NCBI GenBank assembly: GCA_963662465.1
Contig: OY759599.1
Coordinates: 3,584,001 to 3,648,000 of the forward strand
DNA: 64,000 nucleotides
Direction: 5' to 3'
Source of the DNA: Desulfatiglandales bacterium
Lineage (GTDB): Bacteria > Desulfobacterota > DSM-4660 > Desulfatiglandales > Desulfatiglandaceae
In this document: in pieces, positions 5,040-25,410 of the stretch
How the letters are laid out: each line of letters begins with the position of its first letter
Position numbering within the stretch: position 1 is the stretch's first letter
Notes under the pieces: model-generated
What the model was told of the DNA's origin: nothing
Databases searched by the model: none
What the model saw: the letters and a program-made list of their open reading frames with translations, nothing else
Made by a program: the position numbers and the translations under genes

Positions 5040-5697
5040 CCGTGCTGCTTTATTCGATGAGCTGCGAAATCAATTGCGGTTGGCAAAAGAACTCCCGGAT
5101 AAGGAATCAATAGAAGACCTTAACGAGATGCGGTATCAGTTTGAAACATGGACGACTGCCCTTAAAGATCGCCGGCCAAAACGAGGCCCGGGAAAAGATA
5201 TTCGGGAAGCTATTGATATTATAATCAAACATATTGACACGCATGGTGATAGTCTTTGGGGGCACAGCATATGTTTGCCGGAAAGAACAGGCGGCGGCAT
5301 ACGGCTTATGAGTCGAACCAACGAACTGCTCGAAAACTTCTTTGGAACAATGAAGCATGGAGAACGACGGCGCAGTGGACGGAAAAATCTTGGTCAGGAT
5401 CTGGAACATCTACCGGCAGAAGCGGCTCTGGCATATAATCTGGAACACGCCGATTACGTCAATATAGTTTGTGGATCGATCGATCAGCTTCCTCTTGCAT
5501 TCGCGCAATTAGATATGGAAAACCGGAATAGGAAGAATAAATGGCTGCCTTCCCAAGAAATTGTGAATCTTAAAAAAGAGCTTCAGCTTTCTACAGCATC
5601 TCTATCGACAGCAGATAGACGTTTGGTTAGGACGGATCAGATGAATCATCGCATCAAGAAAGCAGCCAGTAGCCGTGCTCCTCGCACATTGCAGTGA
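5040..5697 (+). pseudogene. 3' part of the interrupted transposase-like gene
   Basis: RTNELLENFFGTMKHGERRRSGRK resembles a DDE C-terminal catalytic helix; in frame with 93-314. Confidence 0.7.
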
Positions 5698-5776
5698 GGC
5701 TAAAGCTGCTGATGGATCCAACCGTATAATGACGCTTTAGAAAATGGGATATCCATAAGCAGGGGACTCAAATCCC

Positions 5777-6586
5777 CTATTCGATGATCTCTTTCAACAA
5801 ATCTCTGCTATCGAGCATCAACACCCATCCTTCGATTTCCCCATCGATTCTGAGGAGTGAAACCGTCATTTGAACAAAGGTGTTGTTCACGACAACCGCA
5901 AAGGATTTTCGTCTTAATTGCATGTTTTGCGCTACCGCTTTCAGCCCGAACAATATTTTCTTTTTTTCATTTGCCGGGAAAACCGTGGTGATGCGACGCG
6001 ACAGCAGATTTGAAAACGGTTGGTTCAGAATATCCAAACAGAGCGCATTCACAAAAACGATTCGGGCGTCTCTTTCAATGACGATGATGCCCATGCCCGC
6101 ACTTTCAACAATCCCCTGCTGGAAACTCAAAGACTCCAGCAAATCCACCGTCGCCTGCCTGCGAAAGACCTTCTCCTGATCAAACAGATCTCGATCCGTC
6201 AATGAAAGAAAGGGGGCGCCTTCAATGAATTCCATAAATCTGCCCACATAATCAGTCATTTTCTCAATGGGCTGTTTCTGAAAATAATAGTCCGCACCCA
6301 CATTTTTCTGCAACTCCCGCAGTTCGATAATGGAATCCGACATGCCAATAATGGAAAACTCGGCATCTGCATATTTCTCGCGAATAAAATGAATGAATTG
6401 TCTGCCGTCAATTCTGGGCATGAGAATATTGATGAAGATGTAATCCACCATTCGACTTTCCAACGCTGATATGCCCTGTTTGCCGTCATAGGCCTGAACG
6501 ACATCGTACCCCCGTTCCTTCAGCAACTCTCCAAGAAACTTCACAAAAAAGAAATCATTATCGACAATTAAGGCAGTTTCCGGCAT
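5777..6586 (-). CDS. Atypical response regulator (receiver + PAS)
   Basis: Receiver fold LIVDND...FINILMPRIDG (phospho-Asp position appears to be Asn); C-terminal PAS (IVFVN). Confidence 0.8.
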   Translation of the reverse strand: MPETALIVDNDFFFVKFLGELLKERGYDVVQAYDGKQGISALESRMVDYIFINILMPRIDGRQFIHFIREKYADAEFSIIGMSDSIIELRELQKNVGADYYFQKQPIEKMTDYVGRFMEFIEGAPFLSLTDRDLFDQEKVFRRQATVDLLESLSFQQGIVESAGMGIIVIERDARIVFVNALCLDILNQPFSNLLSRRITTVFPANEKKKILFGLKAVAQNMQLRRKSFAVVVNNTFVQMTVSLLRIDGEIEGWVLMLDSRDLLKEIIE

Positions 6587-9860: not shown

Positions 9861-11252
9861 TTGACCGAGCTGAATTTGTTTGATTTCATAATCATCGGAT
9901 TTTACCTGGCCATGGTACTCACCGTGGGACTGCGGGCGGGACGTCGCGTCGGAAGTTTTGAAGAATATGCGGTTGAGGGACGCTCCTATTCGTCGTTTGT
10001 GGTCTTCGCAACCCTGTCGGCTTCTTTCATCGGCGGTGGATTCACCATGGGCAACGCCGAGAAAGTCTTCATCCTGGGCGTTGTGAGCGTGGTGGCGCTC
10101 TGGGAATTCAGCCTCAAGGAAATTCTGGTGGCAAAACTCATCGCACCGCGGATCGGTGCATTTCCCAACGCCATTTCCGTAGGCGACATCATGGTCCGTG
10201 ATTACGGACGATTGGGGAAGATCATTACCGGCATCTTCTCGGTTCTTCTGTGCGCGGGGATTCTCGGCGCCCAGATCGGGGGCATGGGTTACATGTTCAA
10301 CCTCTTTTTGGGGCTTCCCGTCTGGGCCGGCATTCTCATCGGTATGGGCATCATCATCCTTTACGACACCATTGGGGGCATGCGGGCCATTGTGGCGACG
10401 GATGTCGTGCAGTTTGTGGTTCTGGCCATCGGTGTTCCCATTTGTCTGATCATGGGTATCCGCGCCGTGGGCGGCATCGATGCGATTATGACGGCAGCGC
10501 CGCCCGGTCATTTCCAACTGTTCGGTTCCATCACGCCCGTACAGTTTGTTTCCCTGTTCCTGACGTTTCTATTCGGTGAGACATTGGTGCCCCCCTACGT
10601 GCGTCGCCTGTTCATCAGCCGCGATACCCAACGGATCGTACGCGGCACCTTTTGGAGCGGGATTTTCTCCGTGCCTTTCTTCGCGGTTTCGAGCGGCATC
10701 GGTCTGGTGGCGCTGACCATGAATCCCGGCTTGAACCCCAACCTTTCGCTGCCATACATCATCCAGTCGGCGCTGCCCGTAGGGCTTCGAGGTCTCGTGA
10801 TCGCCGGCCTGATATCGGTGGTCATGTCCTCGGCCGATTCATTCCTCAACTCGGCATCCATTTCCCTCATCAACAACATCGTCAATCCGCTTCGGCGTAC
10901 GCCGCTAAGCGACCGTGAGGGTCTCCGCTGGGCACGCATCCGCCACCCTGCTGACCGGTTCCTTCGCAGTGGTTTTCGCACTCAGGATCCAAAGTTTGCC
11001 GGATATCCTGATCTATGCCTATAATTTTTGGGCCCCCATCATAATGGTCCCCCTGGCGGGGCACTTCTGGGGCTACGAGCCCCAAAAGCGGCGTTCATTG
11101 CCGGGGCCACCGCGGGAATTGCGGGCGTCGCCATATGGAACGGACTGCTGGGGTTTCCGGGCGGGTTCGACGGTCTGGTCGTCGGGGTTTTCACCAATGC
11201 CCTCGCCTTTACCTCGACATACCTGTTGCGGGGACGGATGAAGCGGGACTGA
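9861..11252 (+). pseudogene. Sodium:solute symporter with two apparent frameshifts
   Basis: SSF motifs (GGMRAIVATDVVQ, MSSADS); frame changes near 10940 and 11055. Confidence 0.75.
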
Positions 11253-11331
11253 ACATTTCCATTTTTCGAGATCGACTCACGGTGGAAGTTGAAACATTTT
11301 GCAGATGAGCAAAGGAAAACCGAGCGTGGGT

Positions 11332-11477
11332 ATGAAAGAAAAAAAGCTACTGATCCGCAACAGTACGGCGGAGTTTCTCATTTTCACCGGTCAGGCGGGC
11401 GGCCAAAGCATTGAGGCCCGGTACGAAGACGAAACCATCTGGCTGACCCAGAAGCTGATGTCAACTCTTTTTGAGAA
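11332..11477 (+). pseudogene. N-terminal fragment of a RhuM-like protein
   Basis: IRNSTAEFLIFT...YEDETIWLTQKLMSTLFE, then an abrupt junction with the DGR target remnant. Confidence 0.65.
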
Positions 11478-11684
11478 GAAAAGTAGGCGTAGGGACTACT
11501 CGAACAGTAATTGGACGAGCGACACTCCGGAAAATACGTCGTATCAATGCTGGGATTCACCGCCCGCATCATAACACTTCTCTATCCCCGTATCCGGTAA
11601 TTTGTAATCCCCGGCCACCACGCCGCCCCACAGACCCGTCAACAGCACCAGGCAACACCCCATCTCCACCACAACCTTTTTCAT
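11478..11684 (-). pseudogene. Decayed third DGR target gene (DUF1566) with partial VR
   Basis: Same RBS and signal peptide as 21599-22171 (MKKVVV...LPDTG), an internal deletion of roughly 265 bp, then PSIDTTYFPECRSSNYCSSSPYAYF; truncated at 11478. Confidence 0.88.
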
Positions 11685-11726
11685 TGCGTACCTCCTGTTT
11701 CTCATTCTGCCTTCCATAGGTGCTAC

Positions 11727-11804
11727 TGTAGGTGCGGCTTTAGCCGCACAGCCAAACCCCCAAACGACCCCGATCCCCACTGTGCGGCTAAAGCCGCACC
11801 TACA
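11727..11804. repeat. GTAG-type REP doublet (REPIN-like)
   Basis: GTAGGTGCGGCTTTAGCCGCACA (11728-11750) and its exact reverse complement (11781-11803); each is internally palindromic. Confidence 0.85.
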
Positions 11805-11823
11805 ATCGCACTTGCTGCTTCCC

Positions 11824-12759
11824 CTATTGCGCCTCAGCCAACCGTTTCTCATCCGCCCATCGGCGCATCTCATCCAGGCTCTCCGCATCAAGAAACCGTT
11901 CCCCCAATTCCTCTATGGCGTCGGCATTCAAACCCTCGAACATGGGTTTGGCCATATCAGCGCCAACTCGAAAACGTTTAGCAATCAGCCGGCATAAAAG
12001 CGATATGCTCCCATCTTCTCTCCCAATTCTCTCGACACTCGTCACGTAAGGCATCTTTTTTCCCTCCTCATACTTTGACAATTCTTTCCAAAACAACCGT
12101 TCATGAGCTGCTGGAAGAGCCATCAGCCAATCAATGAACCGAAATAATTTGACGATATCCGCGCGGCTGTAACCGGCTGTATAGAGCTCTTTCACCAAAG
12201 CAAATTTGCGCTTGAAAAGTTCATCAGGGTCCTTCCCGCTTTCCAAAACCGACAAATGGGCGCGAACCACCACAACAAATGGATTCCCTTCTGCATCCGA
12301 CAAAAGCTCGGGCTTTGCCTGGTAATCCAGAAGCTTGACAACCGGGTAACGAAACCGCATTTCGCAGCCCCATAGGCTATAGGTGAACGCCTCGGGACGC
12401 CATTTCTTCGAATCATCCGCCAGAACCGCAAGGCTTACGACCCGCCGGTGGTACCGATCAAAAATCCGGTAATGGTAAACAAACATCCTTTCTTCAAAAT
12501 CCGTGTCCACCTGAGCCTGCACCTCGATATGCACCAGTATCCAGGCCTCCAGACCATCCAGAAGCCATATTTTCACCAGTTTATCCACAGTGCGCCTGCC
12601 CACCTCCGCATCGCGGGTAATCTGCCGAAGTTCCTTCTCCAGAAACGCATAGCCCCTTTCCCAATCGATCTGTTGGTGGGCCTCTGGGAAAAACAGCGAC
12701 ATGAACGGCTCGAAATAAACTTCCAGGATTTCTTTCCAGGGCGAATCAAAATCAGTCAT
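11824..12759 (-). CDS. Rpn-family PD-(D/E)xK protein, copy 1 (311 aa)
   Basis: DSPWKEIL, VDKLVK, ILVHIEVQ, ERMFVYHYRI; near-identical to the copies at 23097 and 24253. Confidence 0.85.
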   Translation of the reverse strand: MTDFDSPWKEILEVYFEPFMSLFFPEAHQQIDWERGYAFLEKELRQITRDAEVGRRTVDKLVKIWLLDGLEAWILVHIEVQAQVDTDFEERMFVYHYRIFDRYHRRVVSLAVLADDSKKWRPEAFTYSLWGCEMRFRYPVVKLLDYQAKPELLSDAEGNPFVVVVRAHLSVLESGKDPDELFKRKFALVKELYTAGYSRADIVKLFRFIDWLMALPAAHERLFWKELSKYEEGKKMPYVTSVERIGREDGSISLLCRLIAKRFRVGADMAKPMFEGLNADAIEELGERFLDAESLDEMRRWADEKRLAEAQ

Positions 12760-13232: not shown

Positions 13233-16200
13233 CTACTGACTCATCTTCACAACCGACCCTTCCCTGGCTTCCATCTTGCTCTTAACCACGATATCGCTCG
13301 ATTTAAAGGTGGCCCGCGCCCCGCTTTCAATCACCACATTGGGACCTACGGTAAGCGATGTCGTGCCCGTACAGGTGCAGTCGGTGCCAGTCTTGAAGGT
13401 CTCGTCATGGACCGTCGGGTTGGCGCCGGAGCAATCGGGGCAACCGGCGGTGGTGAGCGTCTTGAAGGAACGGTTTTCCCCGTAGGCAGTGCCTGCGCTG
13501 TTGGTGGCGTAGGCACGGACGTAGTAAGTGGTCTCCTCGCTCAGTCCTGTGATGGCACAGGTAAACGCACCCGTACCCGATCCCGATGGGACCGGATGGT
13601 CACTGACAGTGGGATCTGTTGACGTACTCCAGCAGACGCCTCTGGCCGTCACCTCCGGAGCCCCTTCTTCCGTTGAAACGGTGCCGCCCCCGGTGGCGCT
13701 GGTGGAAGCGATGTCCGTGGGGGCCTTGGTGGTCACAGTGGGAAGGCTCTCTCCAGCTTCTTTCAACAGTACGGTCGAGGTATTATTCTCCTTGCTGTAT
13801 TCGGGGGTTTCATCATTTGCATTGACCACCAGATAGATGCTGGTAGCAGCGGTCACATTCTCCACAAACAACTCCCCTTCCATAGATACGCCCACCGCCA
13901 GGGCTGAAATATCCACGGTTTTGAGGATCTCCCCATCGACGGTGTTTTTGCGAAACACCAGGTGGGTGGCGCCCGACGGCAGGACCCCGGTGTTTCGCAC
14001 CCCGGCCTTGACAGAAAACTCTGTATCGGACACCCGGGTTTTGGAAACGGAAACCAGGCCCAAATCCGGAAGGGTCATCACCCGGCTCGCCTTGTTGTTG
14101 GTCCGGTCCCCGTCTTCAAAGGTGTTATCGGGGTCCACGATCACGTACAGGGTCAAAGGGGATGCCGTGGCCGCGGGAACCGTCCAGGTCAATTGAACCT
14201 GTTCGCTTGCGCCCGGCTCCAGGGTCTGGGCCGTTTGCGTGCGACCGATCTCGGTACCGCCGGTCGCCGGATCTCCATTGTAGAAGGCCGCAGGAATACT
14301 GTTTTCAGGGATATCGCCGGCATTCACCACATTGACCGTAAGGAGTACCGAATTCCCGGGGGCAGGATTCCCCGGTGCCGCCAGGAAAGTGCCTGCACCC
14401 ACGCTCAGATCGCCGGTCATGGCATATTGGGCCATATACAGGTCCGTCTGGATGAGGACAGGCTGTTCGTAGGAAACGGTTGCGCCGTAAGCCGTCCGTC
14501 GGCTCATCTGTTCCACCTGCACCACGGTTCGGTCATAGACCACCATAAGGGTCTTTTCCGCGGAAAAGGCTGCGGTCATTTGCTGTTCCGTCTCCGGGTC
14601 ATTCGTTAACTGCCGAGGGGCTCCCCACATGTCAAAGAGCGGGTCGTAGAACACCGCAAACAGGTCCGAACTGAATTCCAACGGCTCGGCCCATACCAGG
14701 GCCATGCGGCCGTCGGGCGTGTGGGCCATGGAAAAATCCGCCAGATTGCTGGAATATTCGCCTTCCAGAATGGTGGTCACCGCGTTTGATTGAAAATTCT
14801 TCTCGCTTACCAGGTCGCCGCCCCGCAGCCAGGCCATAATGAAATCCCCGCTGGGATCGATGGCCAGTTTCGGGTTTTCATCGGGCACGCTGTCATTGGT
14901 CAACCGTTCGAGAGCGCCCCAGGCGCCGGAGGAATAGGTCATGGAAAACAATTCCCGATCATCCACGGTTTCCGGATCATTATCCGCATCCAGGCTCAGC
15001 ACCGCATACCCGGTTGTACCGTCGTAAGCCAGGTCGTATTTGATCATGCCGTAGGGAATTTCCCCTGCCTGCCGCGGGTCGGTCCAGGAAGTGCCATTCC
15101 AGCGGGACCACCACAAGGTGTTGGGGGCTTCGGCATCACCCCGAATATCGTTTGCCGTATTAGCGATCCATACCAAAAGCACATCATCGGATGTGGGACC
15201 TGACAGTCTCGGGCTTCGGTCCAGGTAGTTGTTTTGGGTCAATTTTGAAATGTCCGTCCAGCCGGCGCCGGCATCATAGCGGGCCACGGAGATCTCCAGG
15301 TATTTCACCATATCTTCAAACTGCGCGTCATCGGGCATGACCTGCCCCTCATTTTCCCAGGCCAGGAGGCTGTTGCCGTCTGAATAGGCTTCCAGATCGG
15401 AGTTGAAATCCGCCGTGCCGTCATCTGAAACCGCCGCATACTCGCTCCAGTTGGCGCCGTTCCAGGCTGAGGATACCAGGACGGTGCGGTTGAGGGCAGT
15501 GCGGGTCGGATCGTCATAGAGCCATGTGAGCCGGACATTTCCGGTGGCGGCCGAGAGACACGATTCCGAATAGGGAAAGACCTCTCGCTGTACCGAGGAA
15601 AGCCTGGCAGCTCCTGCCTGGCGCGTGATGATTCTGCCGGCTGTGAAATCGCCGTATTCGGTGCTTTCCAGGTAGTTTCGCGAGGTCCATCGGGGTGTAA
15701 CGGGGTTGTTTTGAACAGAAAACATCATACTGTCGGCATCGCCGCCGTACTCCCAGTCCCAGCGGAGCAGCTCGTTTTCCCAGCTCCACAAAAAAAGGTA
15801 AGCGCTGTACCCGCCGTTCAGGTATATGGTCAGATCGGCAAGGGTGGGCTCTTGAGGAAACTGAAGACCAAAGTCGGCGCCGCCCCCAATCCAGCCCTCC
15901 ACCGCAATGACCGAATCGGCCCCAACTCCAAGGGAACCCCTGGCGTATGGTGAAACGCCAAATATGCCATTGATTTTGAAGGGACTCAAATCCACAATCC
16001 CCAGAGACGCATCAACACTTGCATTCACTGAAGCCTTGCCGTACATGGGGATCAACACGGGACCTACCGCCACAACAAAAGGCCAGGATTCCTTGGCCTC
16101 TCCCGAGCCCTTAATAGTCAGATATCCTTCCCAGTCCCAGGCGCATGAAGAACTGAAGTATTCCGCCTCAGCATCGAGGGCCACCTTGAACTCGACTTTC

Positions 16201-17747
16201 TTGCCCATAATTTTGAACTCCGCCAGCTTGCCGGTCTCAAGAGATGCCTCGCAGGTTCCGTGGCTGTCCACCTTGGCGCTGATGCGAGGCAGCCATTCCA
16301 GTTTGAATGCCTTATCACCGAACAGAGGAATCTCTGCGGGAATCACGCCCACGTCAACACCTGCCTTAATTCCATCGCTGTTAAAACCCATTTCAGTTTG
16401 GTAGAAAAACCCATCGCCCAAATCCAGTCCTTTTAACATCACGGGAAAGGGCTTGCCCGCCACCACCAGAGGCGCTTGCTTTTCAGCGGAAACGGCCCCA
16501 TCCGAGGAAACGGCCTTCACCTTCAAGCCGTTGCAGTTCCCGAATTCAGAGCCCATATTGAAGGTTTTGGATGCGGTCGTTCCGCCGGTGGCCACTTCAT
16601 GGGTGGTTGTGGGGGTAATGAAAAGTACCTTCTGCGGTGTGTGTCCGCCCCAGTCCACATTGGCGGTGTAGGTGGCATTGTAGTCCACCCCGTCAAGGTA
16701 AACCACATCCCCGTCATAGCGGGAAGTGATGTCCGTCACCACGATGCCGCCCGAAGAAGCGGTTTGCAATCGAAAATCCTGACGGACGGTTGCGCCGGAA
16801 GGGAGATACACGGACTGCACCGTATCCGCATAACCGGATTTCTTGACAGTAACGGTGTGATCCCCCGACGAAAGGCCTTGAACCGTATACCGGCCACTGC
16901 CGTCGGTGGTGGTTGAAAACCCGGTGCCGCTGACGGTGGCGATGGAAAGGGCGCTGTTGTCGGATTTGTCGTACACATACCCTTCCAGGGTTGCCGTACC
17001 TCCGCCGGTGCTGGTAATTTCATAAGTGACTACATTGCTTTTCCCGCCCGTTCCGCCGTCAATGGCCCACCATTCATACTGCCCTGCCGGGCGATCCCAG
17101 GGCACGGTGTAGGAGATTTCAAACCGGCCGTAAGCATTCACCCCCACCTCCTGGGTGGGGAATTCGGAGCCATCCGGCTTTTGGAAATGCAAAACAGCAA
17201 CCGTATAAGGGGTGAACCCCATACCCCACTGGGTCAGAACACCGCTGGGAGATGCGGACAACGGGGATTGGCCGATCAAATAATCAAATGATCCAGATGG
17301 TCCGGCGCGCACACAACGAACATAGTAGTGGTTGGCCTTATTGTTGAAGTCCACGTAGCCGTAGTAGAAAAAGACGGACCACGCGTAGTACGAATAGTTG
17401 GCGTAGGGACTACTCGACCAGTAAACGGACGAGCGACACTCCGGAAAATACGTCGTATCGATGGCGGGATTATAACGGTCCCAGGCAACCAGCGTCTCCA
17501 GCTCCCGCACATTGGGCAGTCGCCAGTCCGAATGTCCGCCCGGGGAAAGGTTCTCGCAATAGTCCAGGGCTTCCTCCCAGGTGCGGGTCATCCCATCGTC
17601 GCTCTGCTGCCACATCAGGCCGGTCACGGAATCGGAAACCGTGCCGTTGCCGTTGTCGTTGAACGCGGCAAACACGGTTCCGCCGCTGTACAGCAGAATG
17701 CTTGCCAGCAAAACACACGCGCACGCCAAAGTTCTTTTTCTTCTCAT
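13233..17747 (-). CDS. Giant secreted multidomain protein with N-terminal DUF1566/Lcl domain; DGR target 2
   Basis: Signal peptide; DNGNGTVSDSVTGLMWQQ...WRLPNVREL...YVRCVR; then carboxypeptidase-regulatory/Ig-like, propeller-like, CARDB-like and FN3-like (YYVRAYATNSAGTAYG) regions and a Cys-rich tail. Confidence 0.9.
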   Translation of the reverse strand: MRRKRTLACACVLLASILLYSGGTVFAAFNDNGNGTVSDSVTGLMWQQSDDGMTRTWEEALDYCENLSPGGHSDWRLPNVRELETLVAWDRYNPAIDTTYFPECRSSVYWSSSPYANYSYYAWSVFFYYGYVDFNNKANHYYVRCVRAGPSGSFDYLIGQSPLSASPSGVLTQWGMGFTPYTVAVLHFQKPDGSEFPTQEVGVNAYGRFEISYTVPWDRPAGQYEWWAIDGGTGGKSNVVTYEITSTGGGTATLEGYVYDKSDNSALSIATVSGTGFSTTTDGSGRYTVQGLSSGDHTVTVKKSGYADTVQSVYLPSGATVRQDFRLQTASSGGIVVTDITSRYDGDVVYLDGVDYNATYTANVDWGGHTPQKVLFITPTTTHEVATGGTTASKTFNMGSEFGNCNGLKVKAVSSDGAVSAEKQAPLVVAGKPFPVMLKGLDLGDGFFYQTEMGFNSDGIKAGVDVGVIPAEIPLFGDKAFKLEWLPRISAKVDSHGTCEASLETGKLAEFKIMGKKVEFKVALDAEAEYFSSSCAWDWEGYLTIKGSGEAKESWPFVVAVGPVLIPMYGKASVNASVDASLGIVDLSPFKINGIFGVSPYARGSLGVGADSVIAVEGWIGGGADFGLQFPQEPTLADLTIYLNGGYSAYLFLWSWENELLRWDWEYGGDADSMMFSVQNNPVTPRWTSRNYLESTEYGDFTAGRIITRQAGAARLSSVQREVFPYSESCLSAATGNVRLTWLYDDPTRTALNRTVLVSSAWNGANWSEYAAVSDDGTADFNSDLEAYSDGNSLLAWENEGQVMPDDAQFEDMVKYLEISVARYDAGAGWTDISKLTQNNYLDRSPRLSGPTSDDVLLVWIANTANDIRGDAEAPNTLWWSRWNGTSWTDPRQAGEIPYGMIKYDLAYDGTTGYAVLSLDADNDPETVDDRELFSMTYSSGAWGALERLTNDSVPDENPKLAIDPSGDFIMAWLRGGDLVSEKNFQSNAVTTILEGEYSSNLADFSMAHTPDGRMALVWAEPLEFSSDLFAVFYDPLFDMWGAPRQLTNDPETEQQMTAAFSAEKTLMVVYDRTVVQVEQMSRRTAYGATVSYEQPVLIQTDLYMAQYAMTGDLSVGAGTFLAAPGNPAPGNSVLLTVNVVNAGDIPENSIPAAFYNGDPATGGTEIGRTQTAQTLEPGASEQVQLTWTVPAATASPLTLYVIVDPDNTFEDGDRTNNKASRVMTLPDLGLVSVSKTRVSDTEFSVKAGVRNTGVLPSGATHLVFRKNTVDGEILKTVDISALAVGVSMEGELFVENVTAATSIYLVVNANDETPEYSKENNTSTVLLKEAGESLPTVTTKAPTDIASTSATGGGTVSTEEGAPEVTARGVCWSTSTDPTVSDHPVPSGSGTGAFTCAITGLSEETTYYVRAYATNSAGTAYGENRSFKTLTTAGCPDCSGANPTVHDETFKTGTDCTCTGTTSLTVGPNVVIESGARATFKSSDIVVKSKMEAREGSVVKMSQ
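17299..17440 (-). repeat. DGR variable region VR of target 2
   Basis: 17336-17440 aligns without gaps to the TR with 16 mismatches, all at TR adenines. Confidence 0.97.
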
Positions 17748-17750
17748 CTT

Positions 17751-19071
17751 TCAAACCTCCCGGCAATTTTTCATCTGTTCCAATCCACAAATCATTTTCC
17801 CCCGAAAAAGCTTCACCAGCCTGCGATGCACCATCCCATCCAGCGTCTTTTCCGCTCGAATCAGGGCAACATGATACCCGGCATTCAAAGCCTTCATCAG
17901 AAAACGGCCCAGCCACCGCCGATGGAAGCCGCACCCATACCGAAATCCTCGAAGACCCAAAACCGGTTTGAGACCCAAAACATTCCGGGCCAGCCACGCC
18001 TGATAACCATAAAACTCATAAAAGAGGCCGACCGGGAAAAAAATCAGCGCTTTTGTTTCAAAACCTCCCCCGGTCCACAGCGGATAAAAATGCCCCCGGA
18101 CTCCGGGCGCGACCGCGCTTCCCTTTTCAGGCGCCCACCAGCGATAGGCAGCCCGGAAGGTCGCATTTTTTCCCGGCGGCGCATACCTCGGAATAAGCCG
18201 CCCGTCGTCCAGGATAAAAGCGGCCCTCAACACCGCATGTTTTTCAAAAAGCTTCAGTACAAGACCATGCGTATCCGCCCACGAAAAATGCCCGAGATAA
18301 GAGGCTGTCACGGCGCGCAAGGCGTCCATGGTCAAAACAGGGTACTGCCAGGCTCTGATTTCCCGCCCCCTGCCGCTTACAGGAACCGGCTCCGCCAAGC
18401 ATTTTTCAAAATTCGCCAGTTTCTCCTTAAAATGGTTCACCACCCGCCGCCGGGCCAGCACATAACGTCGGCGAACAATATAACCCAAAAAATCAATCCC
18501 CGATGAGACCGGACGGAGGCGGTCCTGCTGCACGTTGGGCCGAAGCAACAGTTCTTCCCTCAAAAACCCTTCAATGGTCTCCCGCCATCTCATCAGCTTT
18601 TGAGGGGACGGATCCAGCAGCAAAAAGTCATCGCAATACCGGATATAATACTTGCATTTCAGCCGATGTTTCACAAACTGATCCAGCTCATTCAAATACA
18701 CATTGGCAAAAAACTGCGAACTGAGGTTTCCGATGGGAAGCCCCTTGCCGGAAGGCACCTTAAAAAGAGTCTTGTGCGGCGGTATGCGCTCCAACAACCG
18801 TTCATTACCCTTGAACCGGTAATCCACGGTGCAATCGTGAAATATCATCACCTGCGTCAGCCACAGCGCATCCTCCCGTTTGATTTTCTTTTTGATGAGC
18901 CGGCAGAGAATCTCCTTGTCCACGTTCATGAAAAACCCGGCCACATCGGCCTTCAAATAGGAGATCCGTTGGGTTCCGTTTTTCGTGGCGCGGTTCAAAA
19001 ACTCCCGGAGCCGAGAAACGCGGCGTGGACGCCCTTCCCTTTCCGGCATGCATAGGAATCATAAATAAACA
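17751..19071 (-). pseudogene. DGR reverse transcriptase, N-terminally truncated, with C-terminal MutS-I-like domain
   Basis: LKADVAGFF, GLPIGNLSSQFFANVYL, YIRYCDD (18627-18638), GIDFLGY; begins abruptly at MFIYDSYACRKGKG with a 1-nt frameshift near 19020. Confidence 0.93.
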
Positions 19072-19080
19072 TCTTATTGT

Positions 19081-20878
19081 CAGCAATTCCCGCTTAGATT
19101 CTAAAGGCGCTAGGACAGTACCTTTTGGCATTTCCTTTTCGTAAAGCTTTACGTTGAATGAATAGCCTGAAAAGGCTTTTTTCTCCAATTTTTAAAATAA
19201 AACAGGAATTTTTTTGGCAATTCTCAGAAAAAGCTGGACTTTCAGATCAACTTGGCCGATGATTACTGCCTATGGGAATCAGAAGCCAAAAAGGAAGAAA
19301 AGAGAGAGGCAAGATTGGAGTTCGCAAGCATCTTAATGCAGATGCAATTTTCAAGCGTCTGCATAAAGATTTTTCTGAAGTCTCTGACTGCCGTGAGGAT
19401 CCCGATATTACTATTGCGGATGCCTTGATGTCCGGGTTTGCAATGTTTTCGCTCAAGGAGCCATCGTTGCTTGCCTTTGATGAAAGAAGAAAAACCGATA
19501 GTAATCTTGGGAACATATACCATATTGGAAAGATCCCATGTGACAGTACGATGCGCACCATTCTTGATGAAGTGCTCGCAGAAGAACTTCGGAAACCGTA
19601 TAGGAATATCTTCTGGGAACTGCAAAGGGGAAAGGTGCTTGAACGTATGGTATTTTTCGAAGGTTGTTATCTTCTATCTTTGGATGGAACGGGTTTCTTC
19701 TCATCGAAGAAACTTTCCTCTGATAGTTGTTTGGTAAAAGTATCGAAAAAAACCGGCGAAAAAACCTATTATCAGCAGATGTTGGGGGCAGCAATTGTCC
19801 ATCCGGATTTCAAAGAGGTCATTCCGCTTGCTCCGGAATTCATAGTCAAGCAGGATGGCCAAAGCAAGAACGACTGTGAGCGTAATGCCGCGAAACGTTT
19901 CTTGCAAAAGCTAAAAGAGGAGCATCCCCATCTGCCTATCATTATAACAGAGGACGCGTTAAGTTCGGATGCACCCCACATTGAAGAAATACAAAAGCAA
20001 AATTTTCATTATATTCTGGGAGTTAAAAAAGGAGATCACCATTTCTTGTTTAATCACGTCGAACAAGCGCGGATAAATGGTGACGTCACTGAATTCGAAT
20101 TGGTCGATAAAGAGGATCCGGAAAAAATACATCGTTTCCGATTTATTAACCAGGTACCTCTCAATGCCTCTAACAAGAATATGCTGGTTAACTTTCTGGA
20201 ATATTGGGAAATTACACCGAAAAAAACAAAACATTTTAGTTGGGTGACAGATTTTTTAATAGGAAAGGACAATGCATACCAGCTAATGCGAGGCGGCCGT
20301 GCGAGATGGAAGATCGAAAATGAAACCTTCAATACTCTTAAGAACCAAGGATATCATTTTGAACACAACTACGGGCTCGGCAAGAAGAATCTGAGTGTTG
20401 TTTTTGCGATGCTCATGATGCTGGCATTCTTGGTGGATCAAACTCAACAGCTTTGTTGCCCTCTATTTATAGCCGCATGGCATAAACTCGGCTCAAAAAG
20501 GGAATTGTGGGAACGGATGAGAGCTTTGTTTAGAGATTTTGAATTCAAATCGATGAGGATGCTCTATGAAGCCCTCTATTATGGCGTAAAGTTTCAAGCG
20601 CCAGTTATTCTATATAACAGTGGTTAAATTTGTCATGCCCAAGTTCGCATACAAAAATGCTCTCATTAATAAAAAACTGGAGATTCCGGAAATGGATATC
20701 TCTGCCCTAACTCGTGCTTTTATGCTCTTACTCTTGTCAAAGAAGCTCAACCTGCAAGAAATCGAGGGAGGTAATAGTGGATTTAATACAATTTTTCTGA
20801 AAAGGATCTGATCTCAGGGTTTGTTTTTGAAATATGTTTTTCAAACTCTGTGAGTAAATTCTTGACCGGGAATTGCTG
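19081..20878 (+). mobile_element. Insertion sequence (ISNCY-like), 1798 bp
   Basis: 12-bp perfect terminal IR CAGCAATTCCCG; 9-bp direct repeat TCTTATTGT at 19072-19080 and 20879-20887. Confidence 0.92.
19272..20627 (+). CDS. DDE transposase
   Basis: LSLDGTG, ITEDAL, GRARWKIENETFNTLKNQGY. Confidence 0.92.
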   Translation: MGIRSQKGRKERGKIGVRKHLNADAIFKRLHKDFSEVSDCREDPDITIADALMSGFAMFSLKEPSLLAFDERRKTDSNLGNIYHIGKIPCDSTMRTILDEVLAEELRKPYRNIFWELQRGKVLERMVFFEGCYLLSLDGTGFFSSKKLSSDSCLVKVSKKTGEKTYYQQMLGAAIVHPDFKEVIPLAPEFIVKQDGQSKNDCERNAAKRFLQKLKEEHPHLPIIITEDALSSDAPHIEEIQKQNFHYILGVKKGDHHFLFNHVEQARINGDVTEFELVDKEDPEKIHRFRFINQVPLNASNKNMLVNFLEYWEITPKKTKHFSWVTDFLIGKDNAYQLMRGGRARWKIENETFNTLKNQGYHFEHNYGLGKKNLSVVFAMLMMLAFLVDQTQQLCCPLFIAAWHKLGSKRELWERMRALFRDFEFKSMRMLYEALYYGVKFQAPVILYNSG

Positions 20879-20983
20879 TCTTATTGTTGTTGTTCACGTT
20901 GCCGTTGTTGAAATTGACGTTCCACGCGTTGTTCGAATTGTTGGCGTTGGGACTACTCGACCAGTAAACGGACGAGCGACATT
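20879..20983 (-). ncRNA. DGR template repeat (TR), 3'-truncated
   Basis: 105 nt with 14 AAC/AAT triplets; matches both VRs except at adenines; lies between avd and RT. Confidence 0.96.
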
Positions 20984-21151
20984 GTCCATCCACTTTATGG
21001 CCCGGTAACATCCGGGCCCCACTGCTTTCCGGGACCGTTTAAAACGGCTGCGAAAAGCTGTATGCATCATGCCCCCAAATCGCATGAGGGCGGGACGGAC
21101 GCACCATGAAAAAAGCACGCTTCCTCATCCCGCGGGATGGGAATTCAGGCC

Positions 21152-21544
21152 TTACCGCCGATTGTTCGAACGCTTTACAACCATGCTGCCGGGCTTATTT
21201 CCGCCCGCACTTTTTAACCACCCCTCATTTTGCCGAGACACATTGACCACCTTCTCGGCAAGCTGCAAAAATGTTTTCGGTTTATTGAATGCCTTCACCT
21301 CCCTGGCAATTACCAGGTGGATCTTAATCCTTTCCAGTAATACGCGTAATCTCAAAAGCGCCGGTGTTTTATCTACCAGCGAATTGGCTTCCATAATCAA
21401 GCCCAGCGCATCGTGACACATGCTTCTCAATTCGGTCCCGATGGTGTACTTGTGGTAGCGGGAAAAAAATTTGACCGTATTTTCCACCAGCACCGTCTCT
21501 TCCATCATGGCTTTGAATATGGGGAGATGATCGTAATTCGCCAT
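21152..21544 (-). CDS. avd: Avd-like four-helix-bundle accessory protein
   Basis: 130-aa basic helical protein (HLPIFK...KYTIGTELR...GWLK) immediately upstream of the TR. Confidence 0.85.
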   Translation of the reverse strand: MANYDHLPIFKAMMEETVLVENTVKFFSRYHKYTIGTELRSMCHDALGLIMEANSLVDKTPALLRLRVLLERIKIHLVIAREVKAFNKPKTFLQLAEKVVNVSRQNEGWLKSAGGNKPGSMVVKRSNNRR

Positions 21545-21598
21545 ATAACCCTTTAGCCCGAAACGCTTAAATAACCAAAGAAAAAAATAATCCAATAT

Positions 21599-22171
21599 TC
21601 AAGGTCCGGCGCGCACACAACGAACATAGTAGTGGCTGGCCTTACCGTAGCCGCCCACGCGGCCGTAGCTGAAATGGACGAGCCACGCGTAGTCCGAACC
21701 GTCGGCGAGGGGACTACTCGACCAGTAAACGGACGAGCGACATTCCGGAAAATACGTCGTATCAATGCTGGGATACACCCGCCCAAAATCCACAATAGAC
21801 ATTAGTTCCCGCCGATCCGGCAGGCGCCAGTCCGAGTACCCCCCCGATGGAAAGGTCAGGGCCGCACAATAATCAATGGCCTCCTGCCAGGTGCGGGTGG
21901 TTCCGTCATCGGCTTGCTGCCACATCAACCCGGTGTTCAGGTCGGTCACGGTCCCGTTCCCGTTGTCCCGGTAGGCGGGTTGGGGCCCGTCGTATTGCGC
22001 ATCCTGGCCGTAAAACGGCGCCCCGGACTGGGGACAGGGAATTTCTTTACCCGCATCGTAACATTTGTGAATGCCCGTATCGGGTAATTGGTAGTCCTCG
22101 GCCACCGCACCGCTCCACAGGCCCGCCAGCAACCCCAGCCAACACCCCATCGCCACCACAACCTTTTTCAT
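21599..22171 (-). CDS. Secreted DUF1566/Lcl protein; DGR target 1
   Basis: Signal peptide, LPDTG, YGQDAQY, DNGNGTVTDLNTGLMWQQ, WRLP, C-terminal YVRCVRAGP. Confidence 0.95.
   Translation of the reverse strand: MKKVVVAMGCWLGLLAGLWSGAVAEDYQLPDTGIHKCYDAGKEIPCPQSGAPFYGQDAQYDGPQPAYRDNGNGTVTDLNTGLMWQQADDGTTRTWQEAIDYCAALTFPSGGYSDWRLPDRRELMSIVDFGRVYPSIDTTYFPECRSSVYWSSSPLADGSDYAWLVHFSYGRVGGYGKASHYYVRCVRAGP
21603..21744 (-). repeat. DGR variable region VR of target 1
   Basis: 21640-21744 aligns without gaps to the TR with 22 mismatches, all at TR adenines. Confidence 0.97.
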
Positions 22172-22652
22172 TGCGTACCTCCTGTTTTCTTATTCCACCT
22201 TCCATGGGTACACCTACAACACAAAAATCACGCAGATGCGGCCCGACAAAAAAACATCACCAGCATAACCCCTTCAGACCCACACTGCAACCCACAACGG
22301 ATAATCCCCGATTTTTTCCATAATACCGGCCCGGATGGGGTTGGCAACAATTGTAAGAATTTATATTTAACGGCATTTTTTGAACCGCAGAATATCGAAG
22401 AAGGAATAACGGCAATCGTTCACGGATTTATCGCGTCCTTCGGGATGCCGTTGTGTCGGGGTGGAAGGGGGACGGTTTGCAGTGCCCGTGAGGGCATTGC
22501 CGGGAAAAACGCCTCACGGCGTCACTACGAACGTCGCAACAGGGCTCATTAACCCCATACAAATCACACTTTCGCTGCCGAATAACCTTAGAACAATGAA
22601 CACTGAACCCGTGAAAGGTTACCAATAACCAGTGTCGAAGGAAAACTTCATA

Positions 22653-23096: not shown

Positions 23097-24056
23097 CTAT
23101 TGCGCCTTGGTCAACCGTTTCTCGTCCGCCCATCGGCGCATTTCGTCCAAACTCTCCGCATCAAGGAACCGCTTCCCCAATTCCTCAATGGCCTCGACAT
23201 TCAAGCCCTCAAACATGGGTTTGGCCGTATCAACGTCAACTCGAAAACGCTTGGCGATCATCTGGCATAAAAGCGACAGGCTTCCCTGCAGCATGCCCTG
23301 CTGCATCCCATCTTCTCTCCCAATTCTCTCGACACTCGTCACGTAAGGCATCTTTTTTCCCTCCTCATACTTTGACAATTCTTTCCAAAACAACCGTTCA
23401 TGAGCTGCTGGAAGAGCCATCAGCCAATCAATGAACCGAAATAATTTGACGATATCCGCGCGGCTGTAACCGGCTGTATAGAGCTCTTTCACCAAAGCAA
23501 ATTTGCGCTTGAAAAGTTCATCAGGGTCCTTCCTGCTTTCCAAAACCGACAAATGGGCGCGAACCACCACAACAAATGGATTCCCTTCGGCATCCGACAA
23601 AAGCTCGGGCTTTGCCTGATAGTCCAGAAGCTTGACAACCGGATAACGAAACCGCATCTCGCAACCCCACAGGCTATAGGAAAACTCCTCGGGACGCCAT
23701 TTCTTCGAATCATCCGCCAGAACCGCAAGGCTTACCACCCGCCGGTGATACCGATCAAAAATTCGGTAATGGTAAACAAACATCCTTTCTTCAAAATCCG
23801 GGTCCACTTGCGCCTGCACCTCGATATGCACCAGTATCCAGGTCTCCCGGCCATCCAATAGCCATACTTTCACCAATTTGTCCACGGTGCGCCTGCCCAC
23901 CTCCGCATCCCGGGTGATCTGCCGAAGTTCCTTCTCCAGAAACGCATAGCCCCTTTCCCAATCAATCTGTTGGTGGGCCTCTGGAAAAAACAGGGACATG
24001 AACGGCTCGAAGTACACCTCCAGGATTTCTTTCCAGGGAGAATCAAAATCAGTCAT
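23097..24056 (-). CDS. Rpn-family protein, copy 2 (319 aa)
   Basis: Near-identical to copy 1; start assigned at MTDFDSPW. Confidence 0.85.
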   Translation of the reverse strand: MTDFDSPWKEILEVYFEPFMSLFFPEAHQQIDWERGYAFLEKELRQITRDAEVGRRTVDKLVKVWLLDGRETWILVHIEVQAQVDPDFEERMFVYHYRIFDRYHRRVVSLAVLADDSKKWRPEEFSYSLWGCEMRFRYPVVKLLDYQAKPELLSDAEGNPFVVVVRAHLSVLESRKDPDELFKRKFALVKELYTAGYSRADIVKLFRFIDWLMALPAAHERLFWKELSKYEEGKKMPYVTSVERIGREDGMQQGMLQGSLSLLCQMIAKRFRVDVDTAKPMFEGLNVEAIEELGKRFLDAESLDEMRRWADEKRLTKAQ

Positions 24057-24145
24057 GTTGAAACACCTCTTAAAAACGGTTAATGTCGGCAACCTTCAGC
24101 TACACAAAAAAGCCCCCTGAAACATCAATCCCAATGGGTCCCTCA

Positions 24146-24252: not shown

Positions 24253-25200
24253 CTATTGCGCCTCAGCCAACCGTTTCTCATCCGCCCATCGACGCATTTC
24301 ATCCAGACTCTCCGCATCGAGAAACCTCTCCCCCAATTCCTCTATGGCTTCGGCATTCAAACCCTCGAACATGGGTTTGGCCATATCAGCGCCAACTCGA
24401 AAACGTTTAGCAATCTGCCGGCATAAAAGCGACAGGCTTCCCTGCTGCATCCCATCTTCTCTCCCAATTCTCTCGACACTCGTCACGTAAGGCATCTTTT
24501 TTCCCTCCTCATACTTTGACAATTCTTTCCAAAACAACCGTTCATGAGCTGCTGGAAGAGCCATCAGCCAATCAATGAACCGAAATAATTTGACGATATC
24601 CGCGCGGCTGTAACCGGCTGTATAGAGCTCTTTCACCAAAGCAAATTTGCGCTTGAAAAGTTCATCAGGGTCCTTCCCGCTTTCCAAAACCGACAAATGG
24701 GCGCGAACCACAACAACAAATGGATTCCGACCGGCGTCCGACAAAAGCTCGGGCTTTGCCTGATAATCCAGAAGCTTGACAACCGGGTAACGAAACCGCA
24801 TTTCGCAGCCCCATAGGCTATAGGTGAACTCCTCGGGACGCCATTTCTTCGAATCATCCGCCAGAACCGCAAGGCTTACGACCCGCCGGTGGTACCGATC
24901 AAAAATCCGGTAATGGTAAACAAACATCCTTTCTTCAAAATCCGTGTCCACCTGAGCCTGCACCTCGATATGCACCAGTATCCAGGCCTCCAGACCATCC
25001 AGAAGCCATATTTTCACCAGTTTATCCACAGTGCGCCTGCCCACCTCCGCATCGCGGGTAATCTGCCGAAGTTCCTTCTCCAGAAACGCATAGCCCCTTT
25101 CCCAATCGATCTGTTGGTGGGCCTCTGGGAAAAACAGCGACATGAACGGCTCGAAATAAACTTCCAGGATTTCTTTCCAGGGCGAATCAAAATCAGTCAT
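24253..25200 (-). CDS. Rpn-family protein, copy 3 (315 aa)
   Basis: Near-identical to copy 1. Confidence 0.85.
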   Translation of the reverse strand: MTDFDSPWKEILEVYFEPFMSLFFPEAHQQIDWERGYAFLEKELRQITRDAEVGRRTVDKLVKIWLLDGLEAWILVHIEVQAQVDTDFEERMFVYHYRIFDRYHRRVVSLAVLADDSKKWRPEEFTYSLWGCEMRFRYPVVKLLDYQAKPELLSDAGRNPFVVVVRAHLSVLESGKDPDELFKRKFALVKELYTAGYSRADIVKLFRFIDWLMALPAAHERLFWKELSKYEEGKKMPYVTSVERIGREDGMQQGSLSLLCRQIAKRFRVGADMAKPMFEGLNAEAIEELGERFLDAESLDEMRRWADEKRLAEAQ

Positions 25201-25410
25201 GTTGAAATACCTCTTAAAAGCAGTCCGATTTATTGGGTTACGCTTTTGCATTGCATCTTTTTCAATACTTTACTTTCTATCAGATCATTTTCAAAAGTCA
25301 ATAGGGGCTTTTCATGGGGATATGCTCATTCATAGGGGGCTTTTCGGGGGGTTCTAAATAAAAGACATCATGGCAACATTCCTTTGCTCAGTTGAGGCTG
25401 GCCCCCATCC

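What the first reader, a model, noticed from the sequence alone, without database searches (positions are those of the whole stretch)
13233..22171. Multi-target diversity-generating retroelement: one TR, two intact targets and one relic
Seen: minus-strand order target 1 (DUF1566), avd-like gene, AAC-rich repeat (20879-20983), RT (YCDD; GNLSSQ), target 2. The repeat aligns without gaps to 21640-21744 (22 mismatches) and 17336-17440 (16 mismatches), and every mismatch is at a TR adenine. The two VRs share a nearly identical 3' end (TATGTTCGTTGTGTGCGCGCCGGACC, candidate IMH). Known: adenine-specific mutagenic retrohoming defines DGRs (Bordetella BPP-1 type). Inference: a chromosomal DGR with no phage genes in the window diversified secreted CLec-fold ligand-binding domains.
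Basis: partly seen in the sequence, partly recalled or inferred. Interest (0 to 1): 0.9.

Follow-up and report, generated by a model that had tools for sequence, protein, structure and literature searches.

The report
Broken two-target diversity-generating retroelement
This is a genuine diversity-generating retroelement that once rewrote two surface lectin-like proteins, but a deletion and a jumping gene have since removed part of its template and its enzyme, so it is an ordinary, recently dead member of a known kind.

Summary
The 105-nt AAC-rich repeat (20879-20983, minus strand) aligns without gaps to 21640-21744 (22 mismatches) and 17336-17440 (16 mismatches). All 38 mismatches fall on template adenines. 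The genes are as described: Lcl_C/DUF1566 target, Avd-like gene, TR, RT, and a second 1504-aa target.

- A 1798-bp IS (19081-20878) with a perfect 9-bp target duplication lies between TR and RT.
- The TR lacks the ~38-nt 3' end that both VRs share, so it has no IMH counterpart.
- The RT lacks about 100 N-terminal residues. It starts at the DSYACR motif, and roughly 316 bp are missing compared with a paralogous DGR elsewhere in the genome.

A frameshift in the RT at 19019 is probably an assembly error, because a short-read contig carries the missing base.

The RT has a C-terminal MutS domain I. The layout target-avd-TR-RT(MutS_I)-target with DUF1566 targets is already catalogued (Wu et al. 2018, Table S1).

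Verdict: a real but recently inactivated DGR, a new member of a known kind, of modest interest.

The parts
21599..22171 (-). Target gene 1 (190 aa): signal-peptide-like N-terminus followed by an Lcl_C/DUF1566 domain that carries VR1 at its C-terminus.
   Evidence: Intact ORF. Pfam Lcl_C E 3.5e-37, residues 73-187.
21603..21744 (-). VR1. The core 21640-21744 aligns to the surviving TR. The block 21603-21639 is the 3' end shared with VR2 (candidate IMH region) and has no TR counterpart left.
   Evidence: 22 mismatches, all at TR adenines. The 3' block is identical to VR2's over 37 nt except one A/G site.
21152..21595 (-). Avd-like accessory gene. The ORF is 147 aa from a TTG; a more likely start is the ATG at 21544, giving 130 aa.
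   Evidence: Pfam bAvd E 8.7e-7, 29.8 bits, below the 40-bit cut-off, covering profile 17-106 of 107. NCBIfam DivGenRetAVD E 9.3e-6, 25.9 bits, below the 80-bit cut-off, covering profile 3-104 of 104. pI 10.0, and a 42%-identical paralog at the same position in the second DGR. No PDB Avd hit by phmmer.
20879..20983 (-). Template repeat remnant (105 nt; 11 AAC and 3 AAT codons). It is truncated at its 3' end, and its last 9 nt are also the right-hand copy of the IS target-site duplication.
19081..20878 (+). Insertion sequence (1798 bp) with 12-bp terminal inverted repeats CAGCAATTCCCG and a DDE transposase ORF at 19272-20627 (+). It is flanked by the 9-bp direct repeat TCTTATTGT (19072-19080 and 20879-20887).
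   Evidence: Pfam DDE_Tnp_1 E 8.4e-5, and a weak IS4-family hit. There are 11 copies at 99.9% identity or more in the genome. 10 of the 11 have a perfect 9-bp duplication. GC is 40% against 56% for the DGR. The RT-IS junction is also present in a short-read contig of run X1 (record 2, 17430-19108).
17751..19071 (-). Reverse transcriptase remnant. It begins inside the gene at the FIYDSYACRKGKG motif and lacks about 100 N-terminal residues. The longest ORF in the assembly is 17751-19049 (432 aa). The assembly lacks 1 nt at 19019.
   Evidence: tblastn with the paralog RT2 matches only RT2 residues 129-145 (frame -1) and 146-570 (frame -3). Nothing matches residues 1-128 in 17000-22300 or at this locus genome-wide. 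Pfam RVT_1 covers profile positions 56-204 only. ORF residue 25 aligns to residue 128 of 8ub7_A. The X1 contig has an extra G behind 19019 at depth 34.1 of 34.1.
17808..18056 (-). MutS domain I (mismatch-recognition domain) fused to the C-terminus of the RT. The G-x-F-x-E motif is present.
   Evidence: Pfam MutS_I E 2.1e-6, 28.4 bits, above the 20.6-bit cut-off, residues 332-414. The paralog's domain aligns to Taq MutS residues 13-97 at E 3e-5.
13233..17747 (-). Target gene 2 (1504 aa): signal-peptide-like start, an N-terminal Lcl_C/DUF1566 domain carrying VR2, then CarboxypepD_reg, CARDB and fn3-like domains.
   Evidence: Intact ORF. Pfam Lcl_C E 3.3e-36 at residues 35-147, CARDB 6.6e-15, CarboxypepD_reg 6.2e-13.
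17299..17440 (-). VR2. The core 17336-17440 aligns to the TR, and 17299-17335 is the shared 3' block. It lies near the N-terminus of target 2.
   Evidence: 16 mismatches, all at TR adenines. Shared block.
11478..11700 (-). Relic of a third target. The block 11563-11700 is 86% identical to the start of target 1. It is joined directly to 11478-11561, which is 88% identical to the region entering VR1, and is cut off mid-VR.
   Evidence: Repeat families D3 and D4. Across the stretch that aligns to the TR, the differences fall on non-adenines (3) as well as adenines (read by eye from the alignment).

Best explanation
This is a chromosomal diversity-generating retroelement with the layout target-avd-TR-RT(MutS_I)-target. 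It used adenine-mutagenic reverse transcription of the TR to rewrite the ligand-binding Lcl_C/DUF1566 domains of two secreted or surface proteins. One VR is C-terminal in a 190-aa protein. The other is N-terminal in a 1504-aa protein.

The element can no longer run on its own. About 316 bp are missing: the TR 3' end (the counterpart of the VRs' shared 3' block), any TR-RT spacer, and the first ~100 codons of the RT, which hold finger motifs 1-2. A 1798-bp IS sits exactly at that junction.

Shown: the adenine-only pattern, the truncations, the IS and its duplication. Inferred: past retrohoming, present inactivity, and that inactivation was recent. The recency rests on there being no non-adenine TR/VR differences and on the IS copies being 99.9% identical or more.
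For: TR/VR pattern:
- 38 of 38 mismatches are at TR adenines, and 35 of 36 TR adenines are in codon positions 1 or 2.

RT identity:
- The RT is nearest to 8ub7_A (E 2.6e-22), ahead of group II intron and retron RTs at E 1e-7 or weaker.
- My identification of 8ub7 as the Bordetella phage DGR RT is recalled; the entry title says only 'Reverse transcriptase'.

Other components:
- Avd-like gene.
- Lcl_C targets.

TR truncation:
- After ...AACAATAAG, TR/VR similarity stops, while VR1 and VR2 stay identical to each other for 37 more nt with one A/G site.
- The paralogous DGR keeps this 3' block in its TR.

RT truncation:
-.

IS:
- The IS has intact 9-bp duplications here and in 10 of 11 genome copies. 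The join of TR to mid-RT is therefore not a collapsed-repeat assembly artefact.
- The junction is among the most AT-rich 31-mers of the element (rank 50 of 7104). The IS duplications average 33% GC.

No remote copies:
- No further TR 3' end or RT 5' end exists in the 8.16-Mb genome.
Against: No direct measure of activity exists. Only contigs, not reads, could be laid, so ongoing low-level VR variation cannot be excluded.

The assembly has at least one indel error in this gene, at 19019, so its accuracy here is imperfect. The TR-side junction was not seen in the contig pieces listed; only the RT-side one was.

The IS lands within 4 nt or less of the deletion junction. That is a coincidence I can only partly explain by AT preference, and the order of deletion and insertion is not resolved.

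The Avd match is below both curated cut-offs.
Confidence: 0.85

Rival explanations
1. The element is intact and active, with the 432-aa ORF a working RT and the 105-nt repeat the complete TR.
For: Both targets are intact ORFs and the TR/VR pattern is perfect. The catalytic YCDD and IGNLSSQ motifs are present.
Against: The ORF covers only RVT_1 profile positions 56-204. It aligns from residue ~128 of the 328-aa 8ub7_A chain. It lacks the counterpart of RT2 residues 1-128. The TR has no counterpart of the VRs' shared 3' block, whereas the paralogous DGR has one. A 1.8-kb IS in the opposite orientation separates TR from RT.
Confidence: 0.03
2. The locus is disabled in cis but its VRs are still diversified in trans by the paralogous DGR at genome 402-411 kb. 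That DGR has a full TR and a full-length RT-MutS_I.
For: The second DGR acts at a distance on at least one remote target about 187 kb away, with 23 of 23 mismatches at its TR adenines. The two systems are homologous: RT 40-55% identity, Avd 42%.
Against: The VRs here match this locus's TR, not TR2. TR1 and TR2 differ throughout, and the 3' blocks that should guide homing are different sequences. The surviving TR lacks its 3' end and downstream RNA. From recalled knowledge of the Bordetella system, priming of cDNA synthesis needs that downstream RNA. The second DGR's own avd has an in-frame stop.
Confidence: 0.05
3. The truncation is an assembly artefact, and the real genome has a complete TR-RT here.
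For: One indel error in this very gene is shown by a short-read contig. IS copies are classic sites of misassembly.
Against: The 9-bp duplication flanking the IS is perfect. That would not be expected if two different IS copies had been collapsed. A short-read contig of run X1 spans 17430-19108 with 0 other letters and 1 gap, so it confirms the RT-IS join. No joint that skips the IS was seen, apart from one weak 21-nt-sided joint at depth 3.5.
Confidence: 0.05

Closest known systems
DGRs with RT-MutS_I fusion, architecture B1 (TG-AVD-TR-RT-TG), CLec2 VR class, DUF1566 targets. Wu et al. 2018, Nucleic Acids Res 46:11, Table S1: FR695874.1 (uncultured Desulfobacterium sp.) and AMWB01060384.1 (bioreactor metagenome). 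I saw passages of the paper and supplement rows.
   Same: Same gene order, same DUF1566/Lcl_C targets, two adjacent targets, an avd gene present, and a MutS_I motif in the RT's C-terminal extension.
   Different: Here the second target carries the VR at its N-terminus, with about 1350 further residues behind it; the two catalogued cases are listed as 'C,C'. This copy is also truncated in TR and RT and carries an IS.
Bordetella phage BPP-1 DGR (mtd-avd-TR-brt), the reference system.
   Same: Adenine-specific TR-to-VR differences, AAC-rich TR, Avd-like accessory protein, a C-type-lectin-fold variable domain, and an RT most similar to chain 8ub7_A (its identity as bRT is recalled).
   Different: This element is chromosomal rather than phage-borne. 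It has two targets, an RT with a fused MutS domain I, and no working TR 3' end or RT N-terminus.
Transposon-eroded DGR loci of Thiohalocapsa PB-PSB1 (bioRxiv 10.1101/2023.09.22.558884; passages seen).
   Same: IS or MITE elements inside DGR loci, duplicated partial systems, loss of RT or TR in some copies, and the open question of whether such loci are active or remnants.
   Different: A different RT clade and different target types (STAND NTPase and vWA sensors there; secreted Lcl_C proteins here).
Msl (MutS-like) stand-alone DGR accessory proteins (Wu et al. 2018; Bacteroides DGRs, bioRxiv 10.1101/2024.11.15.621889, passages).
   Same: [quoted passage not shown]
   Different: Here the domain is fused to the RT's C-terminus instead of being a separate small gene.

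Membership tests
Diversity-generating retroelement | TR/VR repeat pair whose differences are confined to TR adenines | tested here: met
   22 of 22 and 16 of 16 mismatches are at TR adenines over 105 nt with no gaps. Chance is 1.6e-13 and 2.3e-9.
Diversity-generating retroelement | RT of the DGR clade, not a group II intron or retron RT | tested here: met
   The best PDB hit is 8ub7_A at E 2.6e-22, against a group II maturase at 1.3e-7 and retron RTs at 5.6e-6 or weaker. The IGNLSSQ motif is present. No tree was built. The identity of 8ub7 as bRT is recalled.
Diversity-generating retroelement | Complete RT (finger motifs 1-2 through the thumb) | tested here: not met
   There is no counterpart of RT2 residues 1-128. 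Only RVT_1 profile positions 56-204 are covered.
Diversity-generating retroelement | TR 3' end matching the VR 3' end (IMH*/IMH pair) | tested here: not met
   The VRs share a 37-nt 3' block. The TR diverges after AACAATAAG into the IS. The paralogous DGR keeps the block in its TR.
Diversity-generating retroelement | Avd accessory protein | tested here: inconclusive
   Near-full-length matches to Pfam bAvd (29.8 bits, cut-off 40) and NCBIfam DivGenRetAVD (25.9 bits, cut-off 80). pI 10.0, correct position, and a paralog in the second DGR. No PDB hit.
Diversity-generating retroelement | VR inside a C-type-lectin-fold (DUF1566/Lcl_C) ligand-binding domain of the target | tested here: met
   Pfam Lcl_C at E 3.5e-37 and 3.3e-36. 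The VRs lie at the C-terminal end of that domain in both targets.
Diversity-generating retroelement | Ongoing diversification (population-level adenine-site polymorphism in the VR) | not testable with these tools
   Only Logan contigs were available for the four runs laid. Contigs drop rare variants.
RT-MutS_I fusion DGR lineage (Wu et al. 2018) | MutS domain I in the RT's C-terminal extension | tested here: met
   Pfam MutS_I at 28.4 bits here and 44.9 bits in the paralog, cut-off 20.6. Alignment to Taq MutS residues 13-97. 69 of the 150 best cluster representatives hit by the domain also carry RT sequence.
IS4-like DDE insertion sequence | Terminal inverted repeats, DDE transposase, fixed-length target duplication, multiple copies | tested here: met
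   12-bp inverted repeats and a 9-bp duplication. DDE_Tnp_1 at E 8.4e-5, 22.9 bits, just below the 23-bit cut-off. 11 copies. Family assignment is weak: IS4_2 at 22 bits against a cut-off of 152.

The most novel reading that the evidence does not exclude
[quoted passage not shown] I propose that it acts on the densely mismatched cDNA:VR heteroduplex, for example by occupying the mismatches so that host MutS cannot restore the parental VR. That would make escape from mismatch repair a built-in function of the retroelement. The two paralogous copies in this genome, one dead and one with a complete TR and RT, would be a natural test bed.
Probability: 0.2. Interest if true: 0.6.

Novelty: new member of a known kind. 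Interest (0 to 1): 0.3.

Why it matters
For annotation, this locus should be recorded as a DGR remnant, not an active hypermutation system. An automatic DGR caller that sees a perfect adenine-only TR/VR pair next to an RT ORF would overcall it. The two target proteins are frozen in their last diversified state.

More broadly, it is a clean example of how DGRs die. The A-rich template is one of the most AT-rich spots in the element, and it was hit by an AT-seeking IS.

The lineage (RT fused to a MutS mismatch-binding domain, VR at the N-terminus of a giant surface protein) is rare but already catalogued. Host MutS lowers DGR mutagenesis 5- to 10-fold in Bacteroides, so the fused domain is a testable candidate for a counter-repair function.

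Tried and rejected
- Orthologs in relatives: 9 of 41 genomes, G000 included, matched the RT at E 0.001 or better. The best foreign hits were only 36-45% identical, so there was no intact ortholog to reconstruct the lost part.
- Genome-contig scan: 42 loci, all 45% identity or less (best-ranked match 43%), mostly Patescibacteria and archaeal MAGs; no close relative.
- Remote targets of this TR: the BLAST hits at genome 6760429-6760541 and 5920451-5920533 have mismatches spread over all four bases. They are ordinary DUF1566 paralogs.
- RT frameshift at 19019: I first counted it as a second lesion. I rejected this after the X1 short-read contig showed the missing base.
- Read laying: no IS-free joint was found. 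Runs X3, X4 and X11 cover the stretch only in pieces. VR variation cannot be judged from contigs, and the one variant at 21743 equals the VR2/relic base, so it is likely cross-placement.
- PDB search with the Avd-like protein: no Avd chain was found, only a chance hit at E 0.4.
- Third RT in the genome (L056 5289-6293, RVT_1): no TR/VR-like repeat of 50 nt or more within 12 kb; not pursued.
- Paper search for '8UB7': 0 papers.
- The search of earlier findings: nothing for this genome.
- The order of deletion and IS insertion could not be resolved. IS-mediated adjacent deletion and recombination between two IS copies were both rejected, because each would destroy the matching 9-bp duplication.
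Full report
**Observation**

On the minus strand the window holds, in order:
- a 190-aa ORF (21599-22171)
- a 147-aa ORF (21152-21595)
- an AAC-rich 105-nt stretch (20879-20983)
- a 432-aa ORF (17751-19049)
- a 1504-aa ORF (13233-17747)

The 105-nt stretch aligns without gaps to 21640-21744 and 17336-17440. There are 22 and 16 mismatches, and every one lies at an adenine of the 20879-20983 copy. That copy has 36 A in 105 nt. The chance that all mismatches fall on A is 1.6e-13 and 2.3e-9.

Read in the frame of the two targets, the template holds 11 AAC and 3 AAT codons, and 35 of its 36 adenines are in codon positions 1 or 2. This is the textbook design of a DGR template repeat.

**Components**

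- Both flanking ORFs carry an Lcl_C (formerly DUF1566) domain, at E 3.5e-37 and 3.3e-36. The variable stretch lies at the end of that domain.
- In the small protein this is the C-terminus. In the 1504-aa protein it is near the N-terminus (residues 35-147), followed by CarboxypepD_reg, CARDB and fn3-like domains.
- The 147-aa ORF matches Pfam bAvd and NCBIfam DivGenRetAVD over nearly their whole lengths, but below the curated cut-offs. It has pI 10.0 and a 42%-identical paralog at the same position in a second DGR of the genome. I accept it as Avd-like. A phmmer search of the PDB did not find Avd.
- The 432-aa ORF is nearest to chain 8ub7_A at E 2.6e-22. I recall this chain as the Bordetella phage DGR RT; the entry title says only 'Reverse transcriptase'. 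It is far ahead of group II intron maturases (1.3e-7) and retron RTs.
- The ORF also has a Pfam MutS_I domain at residues 332-414, scoring 28.4 bits against a cut-off of 20.6.

IS insertion:
- Between the template and the RT lies a 1798-bp insertion sequence (19081-20878).
- It has 12-bp terminal inverted repeats and a DDE transposase on the plus strand (19272-20627). Its GC is 40%, against 56% for the rest of the element.
- The genome holds 11 copies at 99.9% identity or more. Ten of the 11, including this one, are flanked by a perfect 9-bp duplication. This is therefore a simple insertion, not a collapsed repeat.

Truncated template:
- After ...AACAATAAG its similarity to the VRs stops. VR1 and VR2 continue to match each other for 37 more nt, with one A/G site that looks like one more diversified adenine.
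- The proposed IMH therefore has no counterpart in the template.
- In the paralogous DGR the template does contain this 3' block.

Truncated RT:
- tblastn with the paralog RT (577-aa ORF) matches only its residues 129-145 and 146-570. Nothing corresponds to residues 1-128 at this locus.
- Elsewhere in the genome only distant RTs (28-29% identical) and TR/VR-derived stretches match them.
- Pfam RVT_1 is covered from profile position 56 only. ORF residue 25 aligns to residue 128 of the 328-residue 8ub7_A chain.
- The coding sequence starts directly at FIYDSYACRKGKG, next to the IS duplication.
- By comparison with the paralog, about 316 bp are missing between the template's AATAAG and this point.

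**The frameshift is probably not real**

In the assembly, the 17 codons FIYDSYA...HAA are in a different frame from the 432-aa ORF, with the switch at 19019. A short-read contig of run X1 covers 17430-19108. It has one extra G behind 19019 at full depth (34.1 of 34.1) and no other difference. That base puts the two parts in one frame. I therefore treat the frameshift as an assembly indel and do not count it as a lesion. The same contig confirms the RT-IS junction independently of the assembly.

**Order of events**

The 9-bp duplication is intact. The sequence before the insertion therefore already had the template joined to mid-RT, or else a later deletion started exactly at the edge of the duplication. 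Either way, the junction and the insertion site coincide within 4 nt or less.

Part of this coincidence is explained by target choice. The ten duplications average 33% GC in a 49.5% GC genome. The junction is among the most AT-rich 31-mers of the element, at rank 50 of 7104. I cannot decide the order.

IS-mediated adjacent deletion and recombination between two IS copies are both unlikely, because each would leave unmatched flanks.

**Recency**

There are no non-adenine differences between the template and either VR, and the IS copies are nearly identical to each other. Both point to recent inactivation. The relic at 11478-11700 is older. It has an internal ~270-bp deletion, it is cut off mid-VR where a different sequence begins, and it differs from the template at three non-adenines as well as at adenines (counts read by eye from the alignment).

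**Genome context**

No phage capsid, tail, portal or terminase family was hit in 52 of 54 window ORFs scanned. The two not scanned are 11544-11891 and 48526-48813. The neighbours are IS21, metabolic, transport and regulatory genes.

A second DGR lies at genome 402-411 kb (locus L001) and has the same layout:
- a CHAP+Lcl_C target with a C-terminal VR
- an avd homolog
- a complete 137-140-nt template
- an RT-MutS_I ORF (577 aa) that opens inside the template
- a 1091-aa target with an N-terminal VR

Within the repeat proper, this second template differs from its two adjacent VRs at adenines only, apart from one G-to-C change in the first VR. A further VR lies about 187 kb away, with 23 of 23 mismatches at adenines (ORF in L057). 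The avd homolog of this second DGR has an in-frame stop.

The two systems have different templates and different VR 3' blocks. Trans-rescue of the broken locus is therefore unlikely.

No other target of the broken locus's template exists in the genome.

**The MutS_I fusion**

- The paralog's C-terminal domain aligns to Taq MutS residues 13-97 at E 3e-5.
- A full HMMER scan of 1.84 billion cluster representatives found 241 proteins at E 0.001 or better.
- Of the best 150, 69 also contain RT sequence, 77 are RT-less proteins of 600 residues or fewer (fragments or stand-alone MutS-like proteins), and 4 exceed 600 residues. Three of those four carry the domain at their N-terminus, as MutS does.
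- In an alignment of 140 domain sequences (138 of the hits plus the two RTs of this genome), the aromatic residue and the glutamate of G-x-[F/Y]-x-E are kept in 119 and 131 sequences. The RT in this window has F-Y-E.
- That this motif is the mismatch-contacting Phe-X-Glu of MutS is recalled knowledge.

The fusion is not new. Wu et al. 2018 (PMC5758913; passages, Table S1 rows) list three DGR RTs with a MutS_I motif. Two of them have the cassette order TG-AVD-TR-RT-TG, DUF1566 targets and VR class CLec2. The same paper reports three DGRs with an N-terminal VR.

Host MutS lowers DGR mutagenesis 5- to 10-fold in Bacteroides (bioRxiv 10.1101/2024.11.15.621889, passages). That makes a counter-repair role for the fused domain a reasonable but untested idea.

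IS- and MITE-driven erosion of DGR loci has also been described (bioRxiv 10.1101/2023.09.22.558884, passages).

**Verdict**

This is a recently inactivated copy with a truncated template, a truncated RT and an IS at the break. It is a new member of a catalogued lineage.

Interest is modest (0.3). Its value is as an annotation correction, as an example of DGR decay, and as a pointer to the RT-MutS_I lineage.

Noticed in passing
L001:4403-12789 (genome 402.4-410.8 kb): A second, paralogous DGR with the same layout and a complete template and RT-MutS_I. Its RT ORF opens inside the template repeat. Its avd homolog (L001 about 5479-5886) contains an in-frame stop codon.
   Followed up: partly
L057:3520-4131 (genome ~591.5-592.1 kb): A 203-aa Lcl_C protein whose C-terminal 137 nt differ from the second DGR's template at 23 positions, all template adenines. 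It is a remote target about 187 kb from that DGR.
   Followed up: partly
window 19019: The assembly lacks one G that a short-read contig of run X1 carries at full depth. This is a probable assembly indel that creates a false frameshift in the RT remnant. Other split ORFs in the window may have the same cause, for example the sodium:solute symporter at 9861-11252, which is read as overlapping ORFs.
   Followed up: partly
window 11824-12759, 23097-24092, 24253-25251 (all minus strand): Three highly similar 311-332-aa paralogs with a C-terminal DUF4351 domain flank the DGR. One lies next to the target relic and two lie upstream of target 1. This suggests segmental duplication or recombination shaped the region.
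   Followed up: no
genome-wide; window copy 19081-20878: The IS is present in 11 near-identical copies plus several ~85%-identical relatives. One copy (genome 2835440-2837234) lacks matching 9-bp flanks, which hints at a rearrangement there.
   Followed up: no
window 44718-45305 (-): A further 195-aa Lcl_C-domain protein (E 3.1e-11) that shows no similarity to the template repeat in BLAST. It is an undiversified paralog.
   Followed up: no
window 52612-53208 (+): A Bro-N domain ORF wedged between the gatA-like amidase gene and gatB. It is the only phage-associated family seen in the window.
   Followed up: no
window 11299-11478 (+) abutting the relic: A short ORF fragment (no Pfam hit) starts where the VR relic is cut off. 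From memory its N-terminus resembles RhuM-family proteins; this was not tested.
   Followed up: no
L001:3900-9300: Many copies of a ~22-nt palindromic unit (GTAGGTGCGACTTCAGTCGCAC-like) surround the second DGR. A similar inverted repeat lies in the window at 11720-11811. They look like REP-type elements. The 159-aa ORF at L001 8317-8796 between RT and target 2 may be their transposase; this is recalled resemblance and was not scanned.
   Followed up: no
L056:5289-6293 (genome ~1.133 Mb): A third RT (334 aa, RVT_1), 38% identical to part of the DGR RT, with no TR/VR-like repeat of 50 nt or more within 12 kb.
   Followed up: partly
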